Under the pieces are notes generated by a model, which was not told the DNA's origin, ran no database searches, and saw nothing but the letters and a program-made list of their open reading frames with translations. Shown in pieces: positions 24,127-33,654 of a DNA stretch of 64,000 bases. The first letter of the stretch is position 1. Every line of letters starts with the position of its first letter. The DNA is from Candidatus Latescibacterota bacterium. Lineage in GTDB: Bacteria; Latescibacterota; UBA2968. A program made the translations under genes and the position numbers. The DNA is taken from positions 1,472,001-1,536,000 of the forward strand of contig OZ240241.1 in assembly GCA_965198115.1 (NCBI GenBank). The letters are read 5' to 3'.

Positions 24127-25230
24127 ATGAAAATCACGGACGTGAAATGTTTCCCGTGCTTTCACGGAAGTCGGAACTATTTGTTCGTGAAGGTCGAAAC
24201 GGACGAGGGCATCTACGGAGTCGGCGAATTCGGAATCACGTGGAAGGAACAGGCGGGAATCGGTGCGGTCGAGCACATGAAAACCGACCTCATCGGACAA
24301 GATCCGTTGAACACCGAGTATTTGTGGCAACTCCTGCTGAGGGGCGACTTTTTCCCCGGCGGGCGGATCAACATGGCTGCCCAGAGTGCAATCGATCTCG
24401 CCCTTTGGGACACCAAAGGCAAGGCGCTCGGGCAACCCGTCTACATGCTCCTGGGCGGCAGAATGCGGGATCGAGTCGTCTGCTACAAGGGCATCGGAGG
24501 AAAAACACCGGAAGCAACTGCTGCGGCTGCGAAGGAACGGGTGGCCGAAGGATGGAAATATCTGCGGCTGGGTGTGATGGATCGCGACGGCATCCTCGAA
24601 CCGCCCGTGGCCGTCCGCGAAGCCGTCGGTCCCGACATCGAAATCTGCATCGACGTCCACACGCGTCTCGACACACCCGACACGATTCGGTTGGGGCGGA
24701 AGTTGGAAGCCTACGACCCCTTCTTCATCGAAGATCCACTGAGATGCGAGAATCCGCAAAGCTACCGGCTCGTTAGACAGCAGGTCCCCGTCCCCCTGGC
24801 CATCGGCGAGCACTTTGCCACCAAATGGGAATTCCGTCAGTTGATCGAAGAAGAGCTGCTCGACTACGCCCGGATCGACCTCTGCATAGTGGGAGGGTTG
24901 ACGGAAGGACGTAAGATCGCCAACTGGTGCGAGACGCATTACATCAAAATAGTCCCGCATAACCCCCTCGGACCCGTATCCGCCGCCGCGTGTCTTCACC
25001 TCGACATCGCCACAGACAACTTCGCCGTGCAGGAAGCAGGCCTCGTCGGCAACACCGTGATGACCGATCTCTTTCCCGTGCAGGTCCCCTACGAGTCGGG
25101 TTACCTCCTCGCCCCGACCGGACCCGGTCTTGGCGTAGAGTTCAACGAGGAGGCCACCGCCAAGTATCCCTTCAAACCCCTCCACGGCCCACGGCTACAA
25201 CGAGAGGATGGATCATTCACTAACTGGTAG
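24127..25230 (+). CDS. Mandelate racemase/galactonate dehydratase-like enolase-superfamily enzyme
   Basis: SAIDLALWD, IDVH, FIEDP, IGE, PHNPLGP. Confidence 0.9.
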   Translation: MKITDVKCFPCFHGSRNYLFVKVETDEGIYGVGEFGITWKEQAGIGAVEHMKTDLIGQDPLNTEYLWQLLLRGDFFPGGRINMAAQSAIDLALWDTKGKALGQPVYMLLGGRMRDRVVCYKGIGGKTPEATAAAAKERVAEGWKYLRLGVMDRDGILEPPVAVREAVGPDIEICIDVHTRLDTPDTIRLGRKLEAYDPFFIEDPLRCENPQSYRLVRQQVPVPLAIGEHFATKWEFRQLIEEELLDYARIDLCIVGGLTEGRKIANWCETHYIKIVPHNPLGPVSAAACLHLDIATDNFAVQEAGLVGNTVMTDLFPVQVPYESGYLLAPTGPGLGVEFNEEATAKYPFKPLHGPRLQREDGSFTNW

Positions 25231-25235
25231 ACTGC

Positions 25236-25254
25236 GCCACTGAGGACACTGAGA
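25236..25254 (+). repeat. Inverted repeat downstream of the GxxExxY gene
   Basis: GCCACTGAGGACACTGAGA, 17/19 match to the reverse complement of 26912-26930. Confidence 0.75.
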
Positions 25255-25258
25255 TTCA

Positions 25259-25640
25259 CTACCCGCTCCTCAACGATCAGGTCGGCTGAGTAGTCCCCCA
25301 CCACGTGCCCCTTATACCAAACCTTGAGAAGGGCTTGAGAATGGATATCCAAGCCGGCCTCCTGTAGTTCGATACAGAGTGCTCTTTCGTACACAAAACC
25401 ATGCGCTTAATTCCCAAGCGTGGACGGCCGAAGTTGAGGAGCAGGCCTGTGTTGAGTCGCGTAGCCCTCAAATAGTTGAGAAGCTGAGCCTGGTGCACTC
25501 TCCCGATGTGGTCGATCGACTTCAACTCGAGCAGAGACCCTTTCCAAGAAACCGGACCCCAATGTCCGGTTGACGGTGATAGCGCACCCGATGATCTTCT
25601 CAGTCAGCTCGTCGTTCTTGATTTCAGCCAAACGCGCCAT
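25259..25640 (-). pseudogene. GxxExxY (PD-(D/E)XK) protein gene with internal blocks in swapped order
   Basis: Blocks read A (MARL..GFLERV), C (LLELKS..GLLLNFG..KRMVL), B (YERAL..ADLIVEERV); the family order is A-B-C. Confidence 0.88.
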
Positions 25641-25645
25641 CCTTA

Positions 25646-26907
25646 GTACTCCTGTTCTCAAATACGGTGACGTATTCTAAGCAGACTTTGCCAAGGGCGT
25701 ATCGTAGAACCTGAGTTTGTCGATCATCTCCGCGAGATCTGTTCGTGTGAACTTCCATTTGAAGGGTGTGGCGATACGTCCGTAGCGTTCCTGAAAACCG
25801 AGGATTCTTGCCTCAAGCTCTTCGAGCGATGCAAATTCGATAGGTGTCAGAGCCTTGCGTTTGAGGATCGAGAAGTAGATCTCGATCTGATTGAGCCAGC
25901 TTGCGTGGATCGGAAGGTGAACGGGGTGGATGTTTGGCCACTTCCCCTGGATACGGTCGATGCATGTTTGCCCTCGGTGCGAGGAGCCATTATCCACGAT
26001 GAGGTAGACTTTCTTTGCCGAGCAATAGGGTTTCCGGCTCATGATCAGGCTCAGGAGCCGGTTGAAGGGCTCGATACCCGAAGAAGACTCACAGAGACCG
26101 AAGATTCGACCATTGTGCACGTCGAGAGCAGCCAGATAGGCCAGGGCTCCTTTCCGCTCGTATTCGTGTTTCAACGCGTGCCGCTCTGTTCGAGGCTGGC
26201 GGTAGGGTAACGTGCTTGCGAGCTCGTGCTTGAATACTGGTCTTTTCGTCGGCAGAAAGTACATATTCCCTCGGCCCTAAAGGCTTTCCTTGCCATTGGC
26301 GGTGATACAGATCAAGGACTCTACCTGCTTTGGTTTGGAAGTCCGGGTCCCGTGGGAAAATCCAGGAGCGATGATACCAAGGACGAATCGCGTCCTCGTT
26401 CAACCAGCGCCAGACAGTGGCGCCGCTGATCTTGGCAACGAAGCCCCTTTGCACTGCCTCGGCGGCAATCTCGGAACAGCTGGACCGCGAGAGCGGTATC
26501 CCGCTCTCGCTCGGTAGTTCACACGCCAGCGCCTTGATCTGAACGACCACCTGAGGGGGGAAAACCGGGCGGGCGCCCGGGACGAGATCTATCTTCGAGT
26601 CCCGAAAGACGCTCTTCGAAAAAGCGCTTACGCCATTTGCTTACGATCGGACGCGGGACATCCAACCGTTGGGCGATAATCTTGTTGGATAATCCCTCGG
26701 CGGCGAGAAGCACGATTTTCGATCGGATCACTTGATAATACGGTAACGTATATTGTCCAGCCATTCGCTCGAGGTCGACCCGTTCCTTCTCAGACAGTAG
26801 CACCACATAAGGCGAACGTCTTGGCATTGTTCTCCTCCTTTTGAAGGAGAACATAAGCTACAAATAATGTTCAAGACATACGTAATAATGTTTATGAAAC
26901 CATGCAC
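25646..26907 (-). mobile_element. IS630-family IS, transposase with one extra frameshift
   Basis: HTH orfA from 26827 with slippery TTTTCCCCCC site, DDE motifs SADEK / IVDN / WLNQIE, extra base near 26170, TA on both sides, weak IRs. Confidence 0.88.
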
Positions 26908-26911
26908 TAAG

Positions 26912-26930: not shown

Positions 26931-26968
26931 TGTCTTTGTCTTTCTATCATAGTCAGAGAGGTGTCCTG

Positions 26969-28138
26969 ATGCAAAGTGTGAGCGTTCCTTGGGCGTGTTG
27001 GTATGGTGAAGAGAAGTTCGAGATGACGTTCCCCGATGAATGGTCCCTCGAAGTGTGCGAAATGAAGGGCGGTCCAGACATCGGGGACGAGGGAATCCGT
27101 GAGGCATTCGCCAACCCGATCGGATCGCCGACCCTCTCCGAGGTCGCGAAGGGCAAGACTTCGGCGGCCATTCTTGTAGACGACCTGACGCGACCCACAC
27201 CGGCGGGGCGACTGATTCCCTACGTCCTCGAGGAGCTCGAAAAGGGCGGGATTCACGAAGACCAGGTGCGCATCATCGGGGCTGTCGCCGCCCACCGTGC
27301 GATGATTCGGGAAGACTTCGTCAAAAAGCTCGGGCAAGACATTGTCGATCGAATGCAGGTCCTCTGTCACAACGCAGACGACAACCTCGACTTTCTCGGC
27401 CACACGAGTCGGGGCATTCCGCTCTGGGTCAATCGCGACCTGATGGCCTGCGAAGTGCGCATCGCCCTCGGCATGATCACACCGCGGGGCGGTATCTTCG
27501 GCGGCGGGTCGAAACTTCTGCTACCGGGCGCGTGCGGCCGTGTGACGATCGCAGCAAACCATCGCTACATTCACGACGGATTCCGTGAGCACCTCGACGA
27601 AGTCGGTCGCATGGCCGGTTTGAGCTTCCTCGTAAATCCCTGTCTTAACCCTGAACGGGAGATCAATGCCGTCGTCACAGGCGACCCGGTCGACGCCTTC
27701 TGGCACGGGGTCGAGATCGGGAAAGAGGTCTACGCCTCACCTTTCCCCGACCGGCCCGACGTGGCAATCTTCAACGCCTGGCCTAAGGACGCCGAATTCA
27801 CCCAGGCGGGCATGGCCATGGTCCCCATACGAGGAGACAACCCACAAAAATTGAAGGACGACACGACCGTCGTCATCGCGACCGCTTCCCCCGAAGGCAT
27901 GGGATTCCATTCCGTTTTCGGACCCGGAGCCGAGCTGCGAGGAAAGCCCACACCCCAACGTTGGCGCACGATCATCTTCTCACCCAACCTCAACAAGTGG
28001 GACGTCCTCCTGTTGTATGGAGAACACGCCGCGTTTTGCAGGACCTGGGACGAGGTCATCGAGGAATTGGAAAAACACCACGGAAAAGACCTAAAAGCCG
28101 CTGTGTTCCCGTATGGGGCAATGCAGTATTGTGAGTGA
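26969..28138 (+). CDS. LarA-family (nickel-pincer racemase/epimerase) homolog
   Basis: ANPIGSPTL, DDLTRPTP, AHRAM, GGGSKLLLPG, ANH. Confidence 0.85.
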   Translation: MQSVSVPWACWYGEEKFEMTFPDEWSLEVCEMKGGPDIGDEGIREAFANPIGSPTLSEVAKGKTSAAILVDDLTRPTPAGRLIPYVLEELEKGGIHEDQVRIIGAVAAHRAMIREDFVKKLGQDIVDRMQVLCHNADDNLDFLGHTSRGIPLWVNRDLMACEVRIALGMITPRGGIFGGGSKLLLPGACGRVTIAANHRYIHDGFREHLDEVGRMAGLSFLVNPCLNPEREINAVVTGDPVDAFWHGVEIGKEVYASPFPDRPDVAIFNAWPKDAEFTQAGMAMVPIRGDNPQKLKDDTTVVIATASPEGMGFHSVFGPGAELRGKPTPQRWRTIIFSPNLNKWDVLLLYGEHAAFCRTWDEVIEELEKHHGKDLKAAVFPYGAMQYCE

Positions 28139-29378: not shown

Positions 29379-30799
29379 GGCTATATTCGGATCTCTCAAC
29401 GAGATGAAGTGGGTGAAGGTGCCGTGGTTCCTGGCATGGGGGCGCGGTTAGAGTGTGCGGAACCTCTTCGGAATCTGCTCAGGGATGTTTATGTCTCCGA
29501 CGGTAAGGAAGATCATATCGTTGAATGCGTCGAGTGTGCGGAATCCGCTGGCTCGGTTCTTGACGATTTGGACGATTCGGTTGAGGCCTTCGGCGATGGC
29601 GTTGGTAAGACGCGTGTTCACGAATGCGAGGACGCCGAAGAAGTGCTGTCGCAGGGTCCTGACGAACTTTCGCAGGGGTTCAAGTCGACTTCTGAGTGCG
29701 GACGTCGTCCAGCATTTCAGGAAGCGTTCGGCAGCCCAGGGCGCTTTGTATTCCCAGAACTGCTCGAACTCGTCCTTGAGTCTCCAGGCTCTATAGATTC
29801 GGTAGTTCGCCTTCTCCAGTGCTTTGAGTGTCCGAGTATCCCCTCTGGAGCGTGTCGCTGAGTGCCGGTAGAGGAGCCATCGGAGGCCCTTCATGGCTTT
29901 GCGCTCATCCGGGGCAGCTTTACGCCACTGGTCCTTACGGACCTCGTCAACGGCGGCATTGAGAGCCTTGACGATGTGAAAGCGATCGAGGACCAGCTTG
30001 GCATTCGGACAGTGTTCCTGGATGGCTCCGATGTAAGCTTCGCTCATGTCGCAGCAGGCCCCACTCGATCTTGGATCTCCGGTAGGGACTGAGAGCCTCT
30101 GTGAAGAACCGATCGATCGTTTTACGCGCCCTGCCGCGGCCAACCCACACCACGCAGGAGCGGTCCAGATCGTAAACGAGCGTGGCGTACCTGTGACGCT
30201 TGGCGTAGGAGATCTCGTCGATCCCGATGGTTTTGAGCCCTCGGATACGATGACCTTCACGAAGCCGCGTGATGGATCGGTGAAGGAGATCCGACAGCGT
30301 CGAGGCAGAGATGCGCAGCAACTCGGACGCCGCCTTCTGCGTCATGGTCTGGCAGTAGCGCAGCATGGCATACTCGAAGCGATACGTCACCCGAGAGAAC
30401 CGCTCCGCCCACGGAATCTCCTCGACCACACGACCGTGGGTAGGACACCGAATCTCCCGAGGATGGTAGAGAAGCCAGACCCTCCACCCGCACACCGGAA
30501 TGTCACGCCACCGACGCGGATGGGGCATTGTGCGGACGATTTTACCTCGACGGCCGCATTCCGGACAACAACAACCATTCTTATGGGGCTTTACGGCGAT
30601 GACGAAACAGCTTCTCCCCTCAAACCACCAGCTGACAACACGGAACCCCTTGAATCTCAGCAGTTTCGATAGTAATCTGCTCCCGGTCATAGGTCGCACC
30701 CCCTTCGCTTTGATTGTCCTACACACACAACCAAGCGTAGGGAACGATCTATGACCTTGTCATTCTATAGTTTCACCGTTGAGAAACCCGGATAGAGCC
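29379..30799 (-). mobile_element. ISL3 copy B, +1 frameshift near 30061
   Basis: 1421 bp, IRs GGCT(A/C)TAT..CTCAACG, TSD TAAAAGAA (29371-78 / 30800-07). Confidence 0.96.
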
Positions 30800-30800
30800 T

Positions 30801-30836
30801 AAAAGAAGCCCCGCGGCACAAGCCACGGGGCTTTTC
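30801..30836. terminator. Bidirectional terminator; its A-tract was the ISL3 target
   Basis: AAAAGAAGCCCCGCGGC ACAA GCCACGGGGCTTTTC. Confidence 0.75.
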
Positions 30837-31002
30837 CTGTTCACGATCGCTCAGGTTGTTATGCGTAGTCGATTGCGGGAAACCAGTCTTCTCCACGTCC
30901 ATCCGGCGTCATGTCGAACAGGGCCCACAGGGGCCACACTAGGTCAACGTGGCGTGGATGCTCCTTTTCAAACGGCACGAAGAACAGCTCCGACGCATAG
31001 TA

Positions 31003-33654
31003 GCCTGAATCATGCATGAATTTGAGTTTAGGTTGTTTTGGAGTGATGTGATCACGCACAGGATTTGTTCTCGGCTTCTTCGGATGTCCAAGGTCCCGTA
31101 AGCGGTCTCTACGAGTCGCAAGAGTCACGATTTTCGTCCGGAACAGGTGTTGTTTTGCGACGTGTACATAGCTGTCCCCGGTATAGATCGGCGTTGTTAC
31201 TGCGTGTTCGTTTCGAGCCTGGTGATGATTGACACCAAGACGTTTTTGAGTGGATACGATGTTGGAAAATGGAATCGGATTCTTCGTGCGCTTTCAATGA
31301 CTCTCGCGCCGATTTTGAGGAAACGGTTCTGTATCGTGTTGACCTGAGGTTTGGTCCACGCGGTGCCCTTGAGTCCCTGTGATCGGAGTGCGTGAAGCAA
31401 GGCGTATGCAGCACTGTGTAGAAAGAGTCGGAACTGGTTGGCTTCAAACTTGTGGCACGATGTTCGATCGGAGTGAAGGAATGTTTTGTGGTCCTTGATG
31501 AAGCCTTCCGTGCGTCCCCTTGCGCAGTAGATACGATCATAGATAAAGCCGTCTCGATTACTCTGTAAATTGGTCACGCGGTATCTTGGATTTGCTTCGC
31601 CGTTTGTGACTTCAGCCTTGTGAATGATCCGGCGAGGCTGCCGGTAGGTGCCAGCCTGATATGAGAAGGATGAGAACAAGCGAATCGTCTCCTTATGCTC
31701 GCTCAGACGTAGCGCTTGGTCCATCAGGTTTTGTCCAGCCGCTTTGAGCCTGGAGTTGGCGCCCTGGCCCAGAACGTAGTAGATACCGTTGTCTTCGCAG
31801 AAATCGTGCATCTCTGGTGAGCTGAACTTTGAGTCTGCGCGAACGATGATCTCCACGTTTGGCATCGACGGCATCTTCATAGCCGCAAGCGATCTGAAAA
31901 ACACGCTGCTTCACAAGATCCAAAAGCGTGTGATCGATATAGCTTGGGTGACGACGATCTCGCAAAGCATCTACCATTCTGGCGATCAATCCCATCTGAG
32001 ACTCAAGGGCGCGAAGCAACAGAACTCCACCGTCACTCCTGACGGCGCCACCGGCAAAATCAGCCTCAACTACCTTGCCCGAAATGCTTGCGAATGGTAA
32101 CCGGATCTGACTAGGTTCTATCACGGTAGTTCCTTCCAAGTGTTGTTTTGATGTGTCAGCCCTAAATGTAGGGAAAAACAAACACTTGTACAAGGGGACT
32201 ACCTTTTTTATGGCTATATCCGGATCTCTCAACGAGATGAAGTGGGTGAAGGTGCCGTGGTTCCTGGCATGGGGGCGCGGTTAGAGTGTGCGGAACCTCT
32301 TCGGAATCTGCTCAGGGATGTTTATGTCTCCGACGGTAAGGAAGATCATATCGTTGAATGCGTCGAGTGTGCGGAATCCGCTGGCTCGGTTCTTGACGAT
32401 TTGGACGATTCGGTTGAGGCCTTCGGCGATGGCGTTGGTAAGACGCGTGTTCACGAATGCGAGGACGCCGAAGAAGTGCTGTCGCAGGGTCCTGACGAAC
32501 TTTCGCAGGGGTTCAAGTCGACTTCTGAGTGCGGACGTCGTCCAGCATTTCAGGAAGCGTTCGGCAGCCCAGGGCGCTTTGTATTCCCAGAACTGCTCGA
32601 ACTCGTCCTTGAGTCTCCAGGCTCTATAGATTCGGTAGTTCGCCTTCTCCAGTGCTTTGAGTGTCCGAGTATCCCCTCTGGAGCGTGTCGCTGAGTGCCG
32701 GTAGAGGAGCCATCGGAGGCCCTTCATGGCTTTGCGCTCATCCGGGGCAGCTTTACGCCACTGGTCCTTACGGACCTCGTCAACGGCGGCATTGAGAGCC
32801 TTGACGATGTGAAAGCGATCGAGGACCAGCTTGGCATTCGGACAGTGTTCCTGGATGGCTCCGATGTAAGCTTCGCTCATGTCGCAGCAGGCCCACTCGA
32901 TCTTGGATCTCTGGTAGGGACTGAGAGCCTCTGTGAAGAACCGATCGATCGTTTTACGCGCCCTGCCGCGGCCAACCCACACCACGCAGGAGCGGTCCAG
33001 ATCGTAAACGAGCGTGGCGTACCTGTGACGCTTGGCGTAGGAGATCTCGTCGATCCCGATGGTTTTGAGCCCTCGGATACGATGACCTTCACGAAGCCGC
33101 GTGATGGATCGGTGAAGGAGATCCGACAGCGTCGAGGCAGAGATGCGCAGCAACTCGGACGCCGCCTTCTGCGTCATGGTCTGGCAGTAGCGCAGCATGG
33201 CATACTCGAAGCGATACGTCACCCGAGAGAACCGCTCCGCCCACGGAATCTCCTCGACCACACGACCGTGGGTAGGACACCGAATCTCCCGAGGATGGTA
33301 GAGAAGCCAGACCCTCCACCCGCACACCGGAATGTCACGCCACCGACGCGGATGGGGCATTGTGCGGACGATTTTACCTCGACGGCCGCACTCCGGACAA
33401 CAACACAACCATTCTTATGTGGCTTTACGGCGATGACGAAACAGCTTCTCCCCTCAAACCACCAGCTGACAACACGGAACCCCTTGAATCTCAGCAGTTT
33501 CGATAGTAATCTGCTCCCGGTCATAGGTCGCACCCCCTTCGCTTTGATTGTCCTACACACACAACCAAGCGTAGGGAACGATCTATGACCTTGTCATTCT
33601 ATAGTTTCACCGTTGAGAAACCCGGATAGAGCCTTTTTTATGCATAATTCAGGC
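31003..33654 (-). mobile_element. IS1380 copy 2 with a 410-bp internal deletion, carrying ISL3 copy C
   Basis: IRs GCCTGAAT(C/T)ATGCAT at both ends, TA flanks; the junction near 31862 skips the equivalent of 1075-1484. Confidence 0.93.
32212..33633 (-). mobile_element. ISL3 copy C, +2 frameshift near 33405
   Basis: 1422 bp, TSD TTTTTTAT (32204-11 / 33634-41). Confidence 0.96.

What the first reader, a model, noticed from the sequence alone, without database searches (positions are those of the whole stretch)
25259..25640. Scrambled GxxExxY nuclease gene: blocks in order A-C-B, all junctions at GT
Seen on the minus strand: A (25640-25537, ends AGGGT), C (25536-25393, 144 bp, ends TTTTGT), B (25392-25261, 132 bp, ends CGGGT), then AGTGA. 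Reordering to A-B-C restores the signature GFLERVY across the A/B junction and a TTG TAG TGA end. It gives a 126-aa GxxExxY protein once one extra base at the start of C is removed. Nothing is visibly lost or duplicated. Inference: B was excised between the GGGT microhomologies and reinserted at the stop codon, or a circular intermediate was re-integrated. A clean block swap is not ordinary pseudogene decay and could reflect the nuclease's own mobility mechanism.
Basis: partly seen in the sequence, partly recalled or inferred. Interest (0 to 1): 0.8.

Follow-up and report, generated by a model that had tools for sequence, protein, structure and literature searches.

The report
One-off block swap in nuclease pseudogene
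A small predicted nuclease gene in this bacterium has two of its three pieces swapped with almost nothing lost or gained, which breaks it; the swap is real DNA, turned up in no other copy examined, and likely comes from a single replication slip rather than from a programmed mechanism.

Summary
Confirmed. The minus strand holds a GxxExxY (PDDEXK_3) gene in order A-C-B (profile positions 2-24, 73-117, 27-69). Read-derived contigs span all three junctions without a difference, and reads of a second sample span two, so it is not an assembly error. The same site in two related genomes holds the gene in normal order; reordered, it scores like an intact copy. No frame gives a permuted protein: it is a pseudogene. 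The junctions share 2-4 bases (1.2% of random triples) and two lie at predicted stem edges (about 4%). No second permuted copy appeared in 278 genomes or about 240 fetched loci. Best reading: a single skip-and-return template switch inside the repeat-armed cassette (0.5); cutting and religation (0.2) is the main rival. The scan noted this kind of cassette before on other DNA, but no scrambled copy. A rare, clean accident of modest interest.

The parts
25537..25640 (-). Block A: N-terminal 34 codons with the first part of the GxxExxY signature
   Evidence: Pfam positions 2-24, TIGR04256 1-23
25393..25536 (-). Block C: C-terminal third (ExK motif to last codon), out of frame with A; carries 1 or 4 extra bases at its start depending on the rebuild
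   Evidence: 73-117
25261..25392 (-). Block B: middle third (signature Tyr to the PD-equivalent Asp strand), displaced behind C
   Evidence: 27-69
25255..25260 (-). Remainder of the original stop region, now behind B
   Evidence: sequence; rebuilds
25236..25254 (-). Downstream arm of the cassette (19 bp, two 9-base units); one of 94 clusters of this word in the genome
26912..26930 (-). Upstream arm, 17 of 19 bases complementary to the downstream arm, now separated from the gene by IS630
25642..26911 (-). IS630-family element with its 5-base target copies (25642-25646, 26907-26911), inserted between the upstream arm and the ATG; 66 near-full copies in the genome
25265..25274 (-). First arm of a perfect 10-bp internal inverted repeat, ending 4 bases before the end of B
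25433..25442 (-). Second arm of that inverted repeat, inside C
24127..25230 (+). Flanking mandelate-racemase/enolase-family dehydratase gene (marks the orthologous site)
26936..28138 (+). Flanking lactate-racemase-N-domain gene (other side of the site)

Best explanation
This is a broken GxxExxY nuclease gene whose middle and last blocks are swapped, most likely by a single replication accident in which the polymerase would have skipped block B, copied C, gone back to copy B and then moved on. Shown: the A-C-B order, the A-B-C order at the same site in relatives, the 2-4 shared bases at each joint, the loss of any full reading frame. Inferred: on a single-stranded template the growing strand slipped forward across the GGGT (or GTG) repeat at the ends of A and B, looping B out and gaining 1-4 bases; it stalled at the end of C, 7 bases from the downstream arm, which can pair with the upstream arm; its GT end re-annealed at the start of the still uncopied B; it copied B until it met the duplex at the start of C, and switched again to the only template left. 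The product has the template's length, and all three boundaries are used twice by geometry alone, without any cut or special enzyme. The swap probably was the event that inactivated the gene, or came soon after the IS630 insertion.
For: Same orientation, no loss, no duplication. Microhomology 4/2/2 or 3/3/3 bases, 1.2% and 0.1% by chance. In the rebuilt cassette the two best stems are the arm pair (inner end 7 bases from the third breakpoint) and a 10-bp internal repeat (end 4 bases from the second); two breakpoints lie this close in 4.0% of random triples. The rebuilt protein scores 167.6 bits against a median of 166.4 for the 110 intact copies the profile was built from, so there is no long decay. 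The genome has a low background of short-range template-switch-like events: 2 of 1041 repeat copies of at least 300 bp carry an inversion. No Ku in this genome. E. coli shows repeated template switches with microhomology of a few bases and near-reciprocal joints at predicted stems (PMC3161906, passages). No recurrence in the family sample.
Against: One case, so the mechanism is read from three joints only. The stem statistics were chosen after seeing the fold, rest on a rebuilt sequence, and are weak: an internal stem this good occurs in 21 of 300 codon shuffles and in 10 of 110 natural copies, and the first breakpoint is 13 bases from the nearest stem. The strand as it stands folds no better than shuffles (z -1.1). 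The two background events are inversions, none a same-strand swap. The microhomologies are partly inferred, since the parent sequence is not observed. The near-reciprocal events in PMC3161906 are inversions with indels of tens of bases, not clean swaps.
Confidence: 0.5

Rival explanations
1. Cut and religation: a nuclease (the cassette's own product or a host enzyme) cut the gene three times, leaving the same short non-palindromic overhang, and ordinary ligase rejoined the two freed pieces head to tail in the wrong order.
For: Explains reuse of all boundaries and the kept orientation. All three breakpoints can be placed at GTG, 3 of 7 such sites in the gene, and the arm units contain GTG. Ku-independent end joining in E. 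coli uses ligase A, microhomology mostly under 3 bases at endonuclease breaks, and can add untemplated bases (PMC11297215, passages).
Against: No shared word beyond 2-3 bases around the three sites, and 4 other GTG sites are unused. PDDEXK_3 activity is listed as unknown (PMC3424549, passage). Fragments of 130-145 bp would have to survive exonucleases (general knowledge). Self-cutting should recur, and no second case was found.
Confidence: 0.2
2. IS630-triggered: repair of the gap or break made when IS630 inserted next to the ATG set off the switches or the rejoining (compatible with either mechanism above).
For: The element lies 1 base from the ATG; 66 near-full copies against 1946 genomic copies of the target word means about 3% occupancy per site, and this is the only copy of 66 near an arm. 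The 40 copies printed are 99.4-100% identical, so both events look recent.
Against: Block A (104 bp) lies intact between the element and the first joint. The order of the two events is unknown. The flanks of the other IS630 copies could not be screened with enough sensitivity.
Confidence: 0.1
3. One reading: B left as a 132-bp circle by recombination between the GGGT repeats and re-entered at the stop codon, through the nuclease's own mobility reaction.
For: The longest microhomology (4 bases) is between the ends of A and B.
Against: The circle must reopen exactly at its own joint; no recombinase or site is evident; no back-joint is listed; no recurrence; the breakpoints are not at the cassette ends.
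Confidence: 0.08
4. Tandem duplication of B-C followed by two separate deletions (first B, second C).
For: Each step is a known short-repeat event (general knowledge); tandem duplications of part of a GxxExxY cassette exist (L252).
Against: Both deletions must hit the duplication's ends and the same internal point with no selection for it; collapse to one copy is far likelier.
Confidence: 0.07
5. Assembly artefact.
For: Single-contig genome; runs X1 and X2 may be the source sample.
Against: Read-derived contigs of X1 and X2 span all three joints, and pieces of X3 (another sample) span two with 56-95 bases on each side, all with 0 differences.
Confidence: 0.02

Closest known systems
Microhomology-mediated repeated template switching in E. 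coli (PMC3161906; passages seen)
   Same: Several new joints from one event, microhomology of a few bases, joints at predicted stems, near-reciprocal exchange within one fork.
   Different: Those events are kilobase inversions, duplications and deletions with indels of tens of bases; this is a same-strand swap of two adjacent blocks of 132 and 144 bp with 1-4 extra bases.
Alternative end joining (A-EJ) of E. coli (PMC11297215; passages seen)
   Same: Ku-independent, 2-4 base microhomology, occasional added bases; this genome has no Ku match.
   Different: Reported products are translocations and deletions; no lossless reordering of two neighbouring fragments in the passages read.
'Cut and paste' model of sequence permutation in DNA methyltransferase genes (named in PMC3320104, passage; the original, Bujnicki 2002, was not held; its content is recalled)
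   Same: Non-circular reordering of gene pieces without duplication.
   Different: Proposed from diverged functional proteins; here the DNA joints are still readable and the product is out of frame.
GxxExxY / PDDEXK_3 family (TIGR04256, PF13366)
   Same: All three blocks match the profiles; the rebuilt gene scores as an intact member.
   Different: Block order A-C-B; no full protein is encoded. Function listed as unknown (PMC3424549, passage).
Programmed unscrambling (ciliate scrambled genes) and shufflons (recalled, not tested against a source)
   Same: Gene pieces out of order with short shared words at the joints.
   Different: No restored form in the read contigs, no recurrence, no recombinase nearby, no inversion.

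Membership tests
GxxExxY / PDDEXK_3 family | Profile match over the curated cut-off | tested here: met
   B 40.3 and C 52.7 bits against 35 (TIGR04256); A 22.5 is under it alone but reaches the Pfam cut-off, 22.2 against 22
GxxExxY / PDDEXK_3 family | One open frame of about 125 aa with the signature followed by the PD-(D/E)XK residues | tested here: not met
   The A frame stops inside C after 77 codons; removing a base puts C in frame but B out of frame. Pseudogene.
GxxExxY / PDDEXK_3 family | Nuclease activity | not testable with these tools
   Listed as unknown in PMC3424549
Repeat-armed GxxExxY cassette (noted by earlier AI reports, not found in print) | Inverted arms of short repeated units around the gene, with many further arm copies in the genome | tested here: met
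   17 of 19 bases complementary; 110 matches in 94 clusters at up to 2 mismatches; present at this site in G002 and G010, absent in same-genus G001
Microhomology-mediated template-switch rearrangement | Several joints with microhomology of a few bases | tested here: met
Microhomology-mediated template-switch rearrangement | Joints at secondary structures | tested here: inconclusive
   p about 0.03-0.04, thresholds set afterwards
Microhomology-mediated template-switch rearrangement | Dependence on replication functions | not testable with these tools
   needs genetics
Programmed or site-specific rearrangement (shufflon, circle excision, gene unscrambling) | Recurrence at the same sites in other copies | tested here: not met
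   No other permuted copy in 278 genomes (tables) or in fetched loci; a sample, not the whole family
Programmed or site-specific rearrangement (shufflon, circle excision, gene unscrambling) | Alternative or restored form in the population | tested here: inconclusive
   None listed, but contigs only, depth about 6
Functional non-circular permutant | Permuted order kept in one frame and shared by relatives | tested here: not met
   no relatives with this order

The most novel reading that the evidence does not exclude
The GxxExxY nuclease cuts DNA leaving a short non-palindromic GT(G) overhang, cut its own gene three times, and the pieces were religated in a new order: a natural Golden-Gate-like scramble that records the cut chemistry of an unstudied, very widespread mobile nuclease family and shows the cut-and-paste route to protein permutation caught in the act.
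Probability: 0.12. Interest if true: 0.7.

Novelty: new variant of a known kind. Interest (0 to 1): 0.3.

Why it matters
Clean swaps of adjacent blocks are the raw step needed for non-circular permutation of proteins, which is usually inferred from old, diverged sequences. Here all three DNA joints are still readable, so it is a small natural example that bacteria can make such a swap with 2-4 bases of homology and almost no loss. But it is one dead gene in one lineage, with no sign of function or recurrence. It would matter more only if the joints proved to be cut sites of the cassette's nuclease.

Tried and rejected
Protein-level screens of the genome for other swapped genes (blastx of 3371 chunks; of 2799 open regions) missed the window's own locus (only block C hit), so their blanks mean nothing; the hits checked were internal repeats or tandem genes. 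A 'patchwork' locus at G000 1.432 Mb first looked like a second swap but is a deletion-inversion-deletion that had been compared with an already inverted copy. A first DNA self-comparison gave 344 private joints, mostly nested IS in the part printed. Of 14 flagged rows, 8 came from a dimeric reference and 2 from a copy read as an element end after a deletion; these were dropped. IS630 targeting of the arms: 1 of 66, not supported. Folding of the strand as it stands: z -1.1. Classical end joining: no Ku. Expression: no RNA holder listed, no evidence either way. Viral contigs: 2 short matches only. A collection-wide scan for the C-to-B joint was not run, and no second read layout on the gene alone was obtained, so recurrence at low frequency and rare A-B-C molecules remain open. 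The two rebuilds could not be told apart: Leu and Val are about equally common at the position in question (12 and 14 of 110) and no close relative was found (best matches 63-70% identity). Three papers asked for were not held; no supplements were read.

Full report
1. Observation. The minus strand from 25640 to 25261 reads A (104 bp), C (144 bp), B (132 bp), each ending in GT. The blocks match Pfam PDDEXK_3 at positions 2-24, 73-117 and 27-69 and TIGR04256 at 1-23, 72-116 and 26-68, so only A-B-C is collinear and nothing is missing or doubled. A and B share a frame, C lies in another; the A frame stops inside C after 77 codons, and taking out one base puts C in frame but B out. No permuted protein is encoded.

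2. Is it real? Three public runs hold the stretch. Contigs of X1 and X2, one sample and possibly the source, cover 24900-25667 with no difference. Two 151-nt pieces of X3, another sample of the same study, span the B/end and C/B joints with no difference; X3 does not cover the A/C joint. No A-B-C or circle joint is listed, but these are contigs at depth about 6 and the piece table was cut.

3. Surroundings. The gene lies between a dehydratase gene (24127-25230) and a lactate-racemase-domain gene (26936-28138). It is bracketed by 19-bp inverted arms, 26930-26912 and 25254-25236, 17 of 19 complementary; the arm word recurs in 94 clusters genome-wide. An IS630 element (66 near-full copies) separates the upstream arm from the ATG. 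The genome has two intact GxxExxY genes and two C-terminal remnants with other arm words. At the same gene junction G002 and G010 hold a GxxExxY cassette in A-B-C order, G007 a decayed collinear one, and same-genus G001 none. So A-B-C is the ancestral order at this site. I did not determine the organism.

4. The joints. Random triples reach at least 2 shared bases at all joints in 1.2% and at least 3 in 0.1% of 200,000 draws; the homologies are partly inferred because the parent is not seen. The first rebuild scores 167.6 bits, against a median of 166.4 for the 110 intact copies used to build the profile: no decay besides the swap. In the rebuilt cassette the best stems are the arm pair, ending 7 bases from the third breakpoint, and a 10-bp internal repeat ending 4 bases from the second; 4.0% of random triples do as well, with thresholds set afterwards. 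Such an internal stem is not rare (21 of 300 shuffles, 10 of 110 natural copies), and the first breakpoint is 13 bases from a stem.

5. Recurrence. Family searches covered 278 distinct genomes: 150 of 156 rows shown for 168 genomes of the phylum, and 27, 100, 23 and 68 rows for four further sets that overlap by three genomes. The window's own case shows up as three out-of-order rows, so the test can see it. The 17 other split pairs, read by eye, are all collinear. A profile of my own over fetched DNA flagged 4 of 156 strand-loci, all four being the window locus, 0 of 80 and 0 of 7; these loci are not de-duplicated, and most were picked as best matches, which favours intact genes. Remnants elsewhere are deletions, frameshifts or a tandem copy of arm plus C half. 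This is a sample of a very large family; a rare recurrence is not excluded.

6. Background in this genome. Among 1041 repeat-element copies of at least 300 bp, two are truly rearranged: a clean 336-bp internal inversion at 43.4 kb and a deletion-inversion-deletion at 1.432 Mb, both in one element family; none is a same-strand swap. Protein-level screens failed their positive control. There is no Ku match.

7. Mechanism. The key constraint is that each of three boundaries is used twice. Independent steps (duplication plus two deletions; a circle reopening at its own joint) need coincidences. Two models give reuse for free. In skip-and-return template switching, the uncopied loop B and the template beyond C are the only single-stranded targets near the stalled end; this needs no enzyme of unknown activity, fits the microhomology, the added bases and, weakly, the stems (0.5). 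In cut-and-religate, equal non-palindromic overhangs force head-to-tail joining (0.2), but no longer shared site exists, 4 of 7 GTG sites are unused, and nothing recurs. The IS630 next door may have been the trigger (about 3% occupancy per target site; 0.1). All mechanistic steps are inference.

8. Known. GxxExxY appears in 3 held papers (2 listed), the one read naming it only in passing (passage); PF13366 is listed with unknown function (PMC3424549, passage; search). Repeated template switches with short microhomology and near-reciprocal joints at stems are described in E. coli (PMC3161906, passages), as is Ku-independent end joining (PMC11297215, passages). A cut-and-paste route to permutation is named in PMC3320104 (passage); the original could not be read. 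Searches (listings and abstract starts only; PMC4888836 passages, added nothing used) showed no report of a lossless adjacent block swap in a bacterial gene; the library lacks most subscription papers. Earlier notes of this scan describe the arm-bracketed cassette in hundreds of genomes but no scrambled copy.

9. Verdict. A real, clean and rare rearrangement that killed one copy of a probably mobile nuclease gene; a new variant of microhomology-mediated rearrangement, with no evidence of a programmed process. Interest 0.3.

Noticed in passing
window 25642-26911 and genome-wide (G000): The IS630 inserts at a 5-base target whose middle base often differs between the two flanking copies: 11 of 34 scored copies have CTTAG on one side and CTAAG on the other, including this one.
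   Followed up: partly
G000:C1:43432-43767: Clean 336-bp internal inversion in a copy of a 1.39-kb IS; the two breakpoints fall in the palindromic 4-mers AGCT and TCGA with at most 2 bases doubled.
   Followed up: partly
G000:C1:1431689-1432218: Deletion-inversion-deletion in another copy of the same IS family: positions 1-353 forward, 618-486 inverted, 749-795 forward.
   Followed up: partly
G000 genome-wide: 94 clusters of this cassette's arm word, nearly all outside called genes, some as close inverted pairs without a nuclease gene; the scrambled gene is the only one of five GxxExxY loci with this exact arm word, so the repeat family may have lost its own enzyme.
   Followed up: partly
G000 genome-wide: About 13% of the genome is masked by some 20 repeat families, mostly IS at 99% identity and often nested: a recent IS expansion.
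   Followed up: no
L252:440-1060 (G171): Tandem duplication of a hairpin plus the C-terminal half of a GxxExxY gene.
   Followed up: no
window 29448-33408: Two adjacent, nearly identical transposase copies (one split) with a further broken transposase between them; families not checked.
   Followed up: no
L010, L012, L170, L023: The cassette at this gene junction is decaying independently in three relatives (frameshifts, substituted motifs) and is absent in the closest one.
   Followed up: partly
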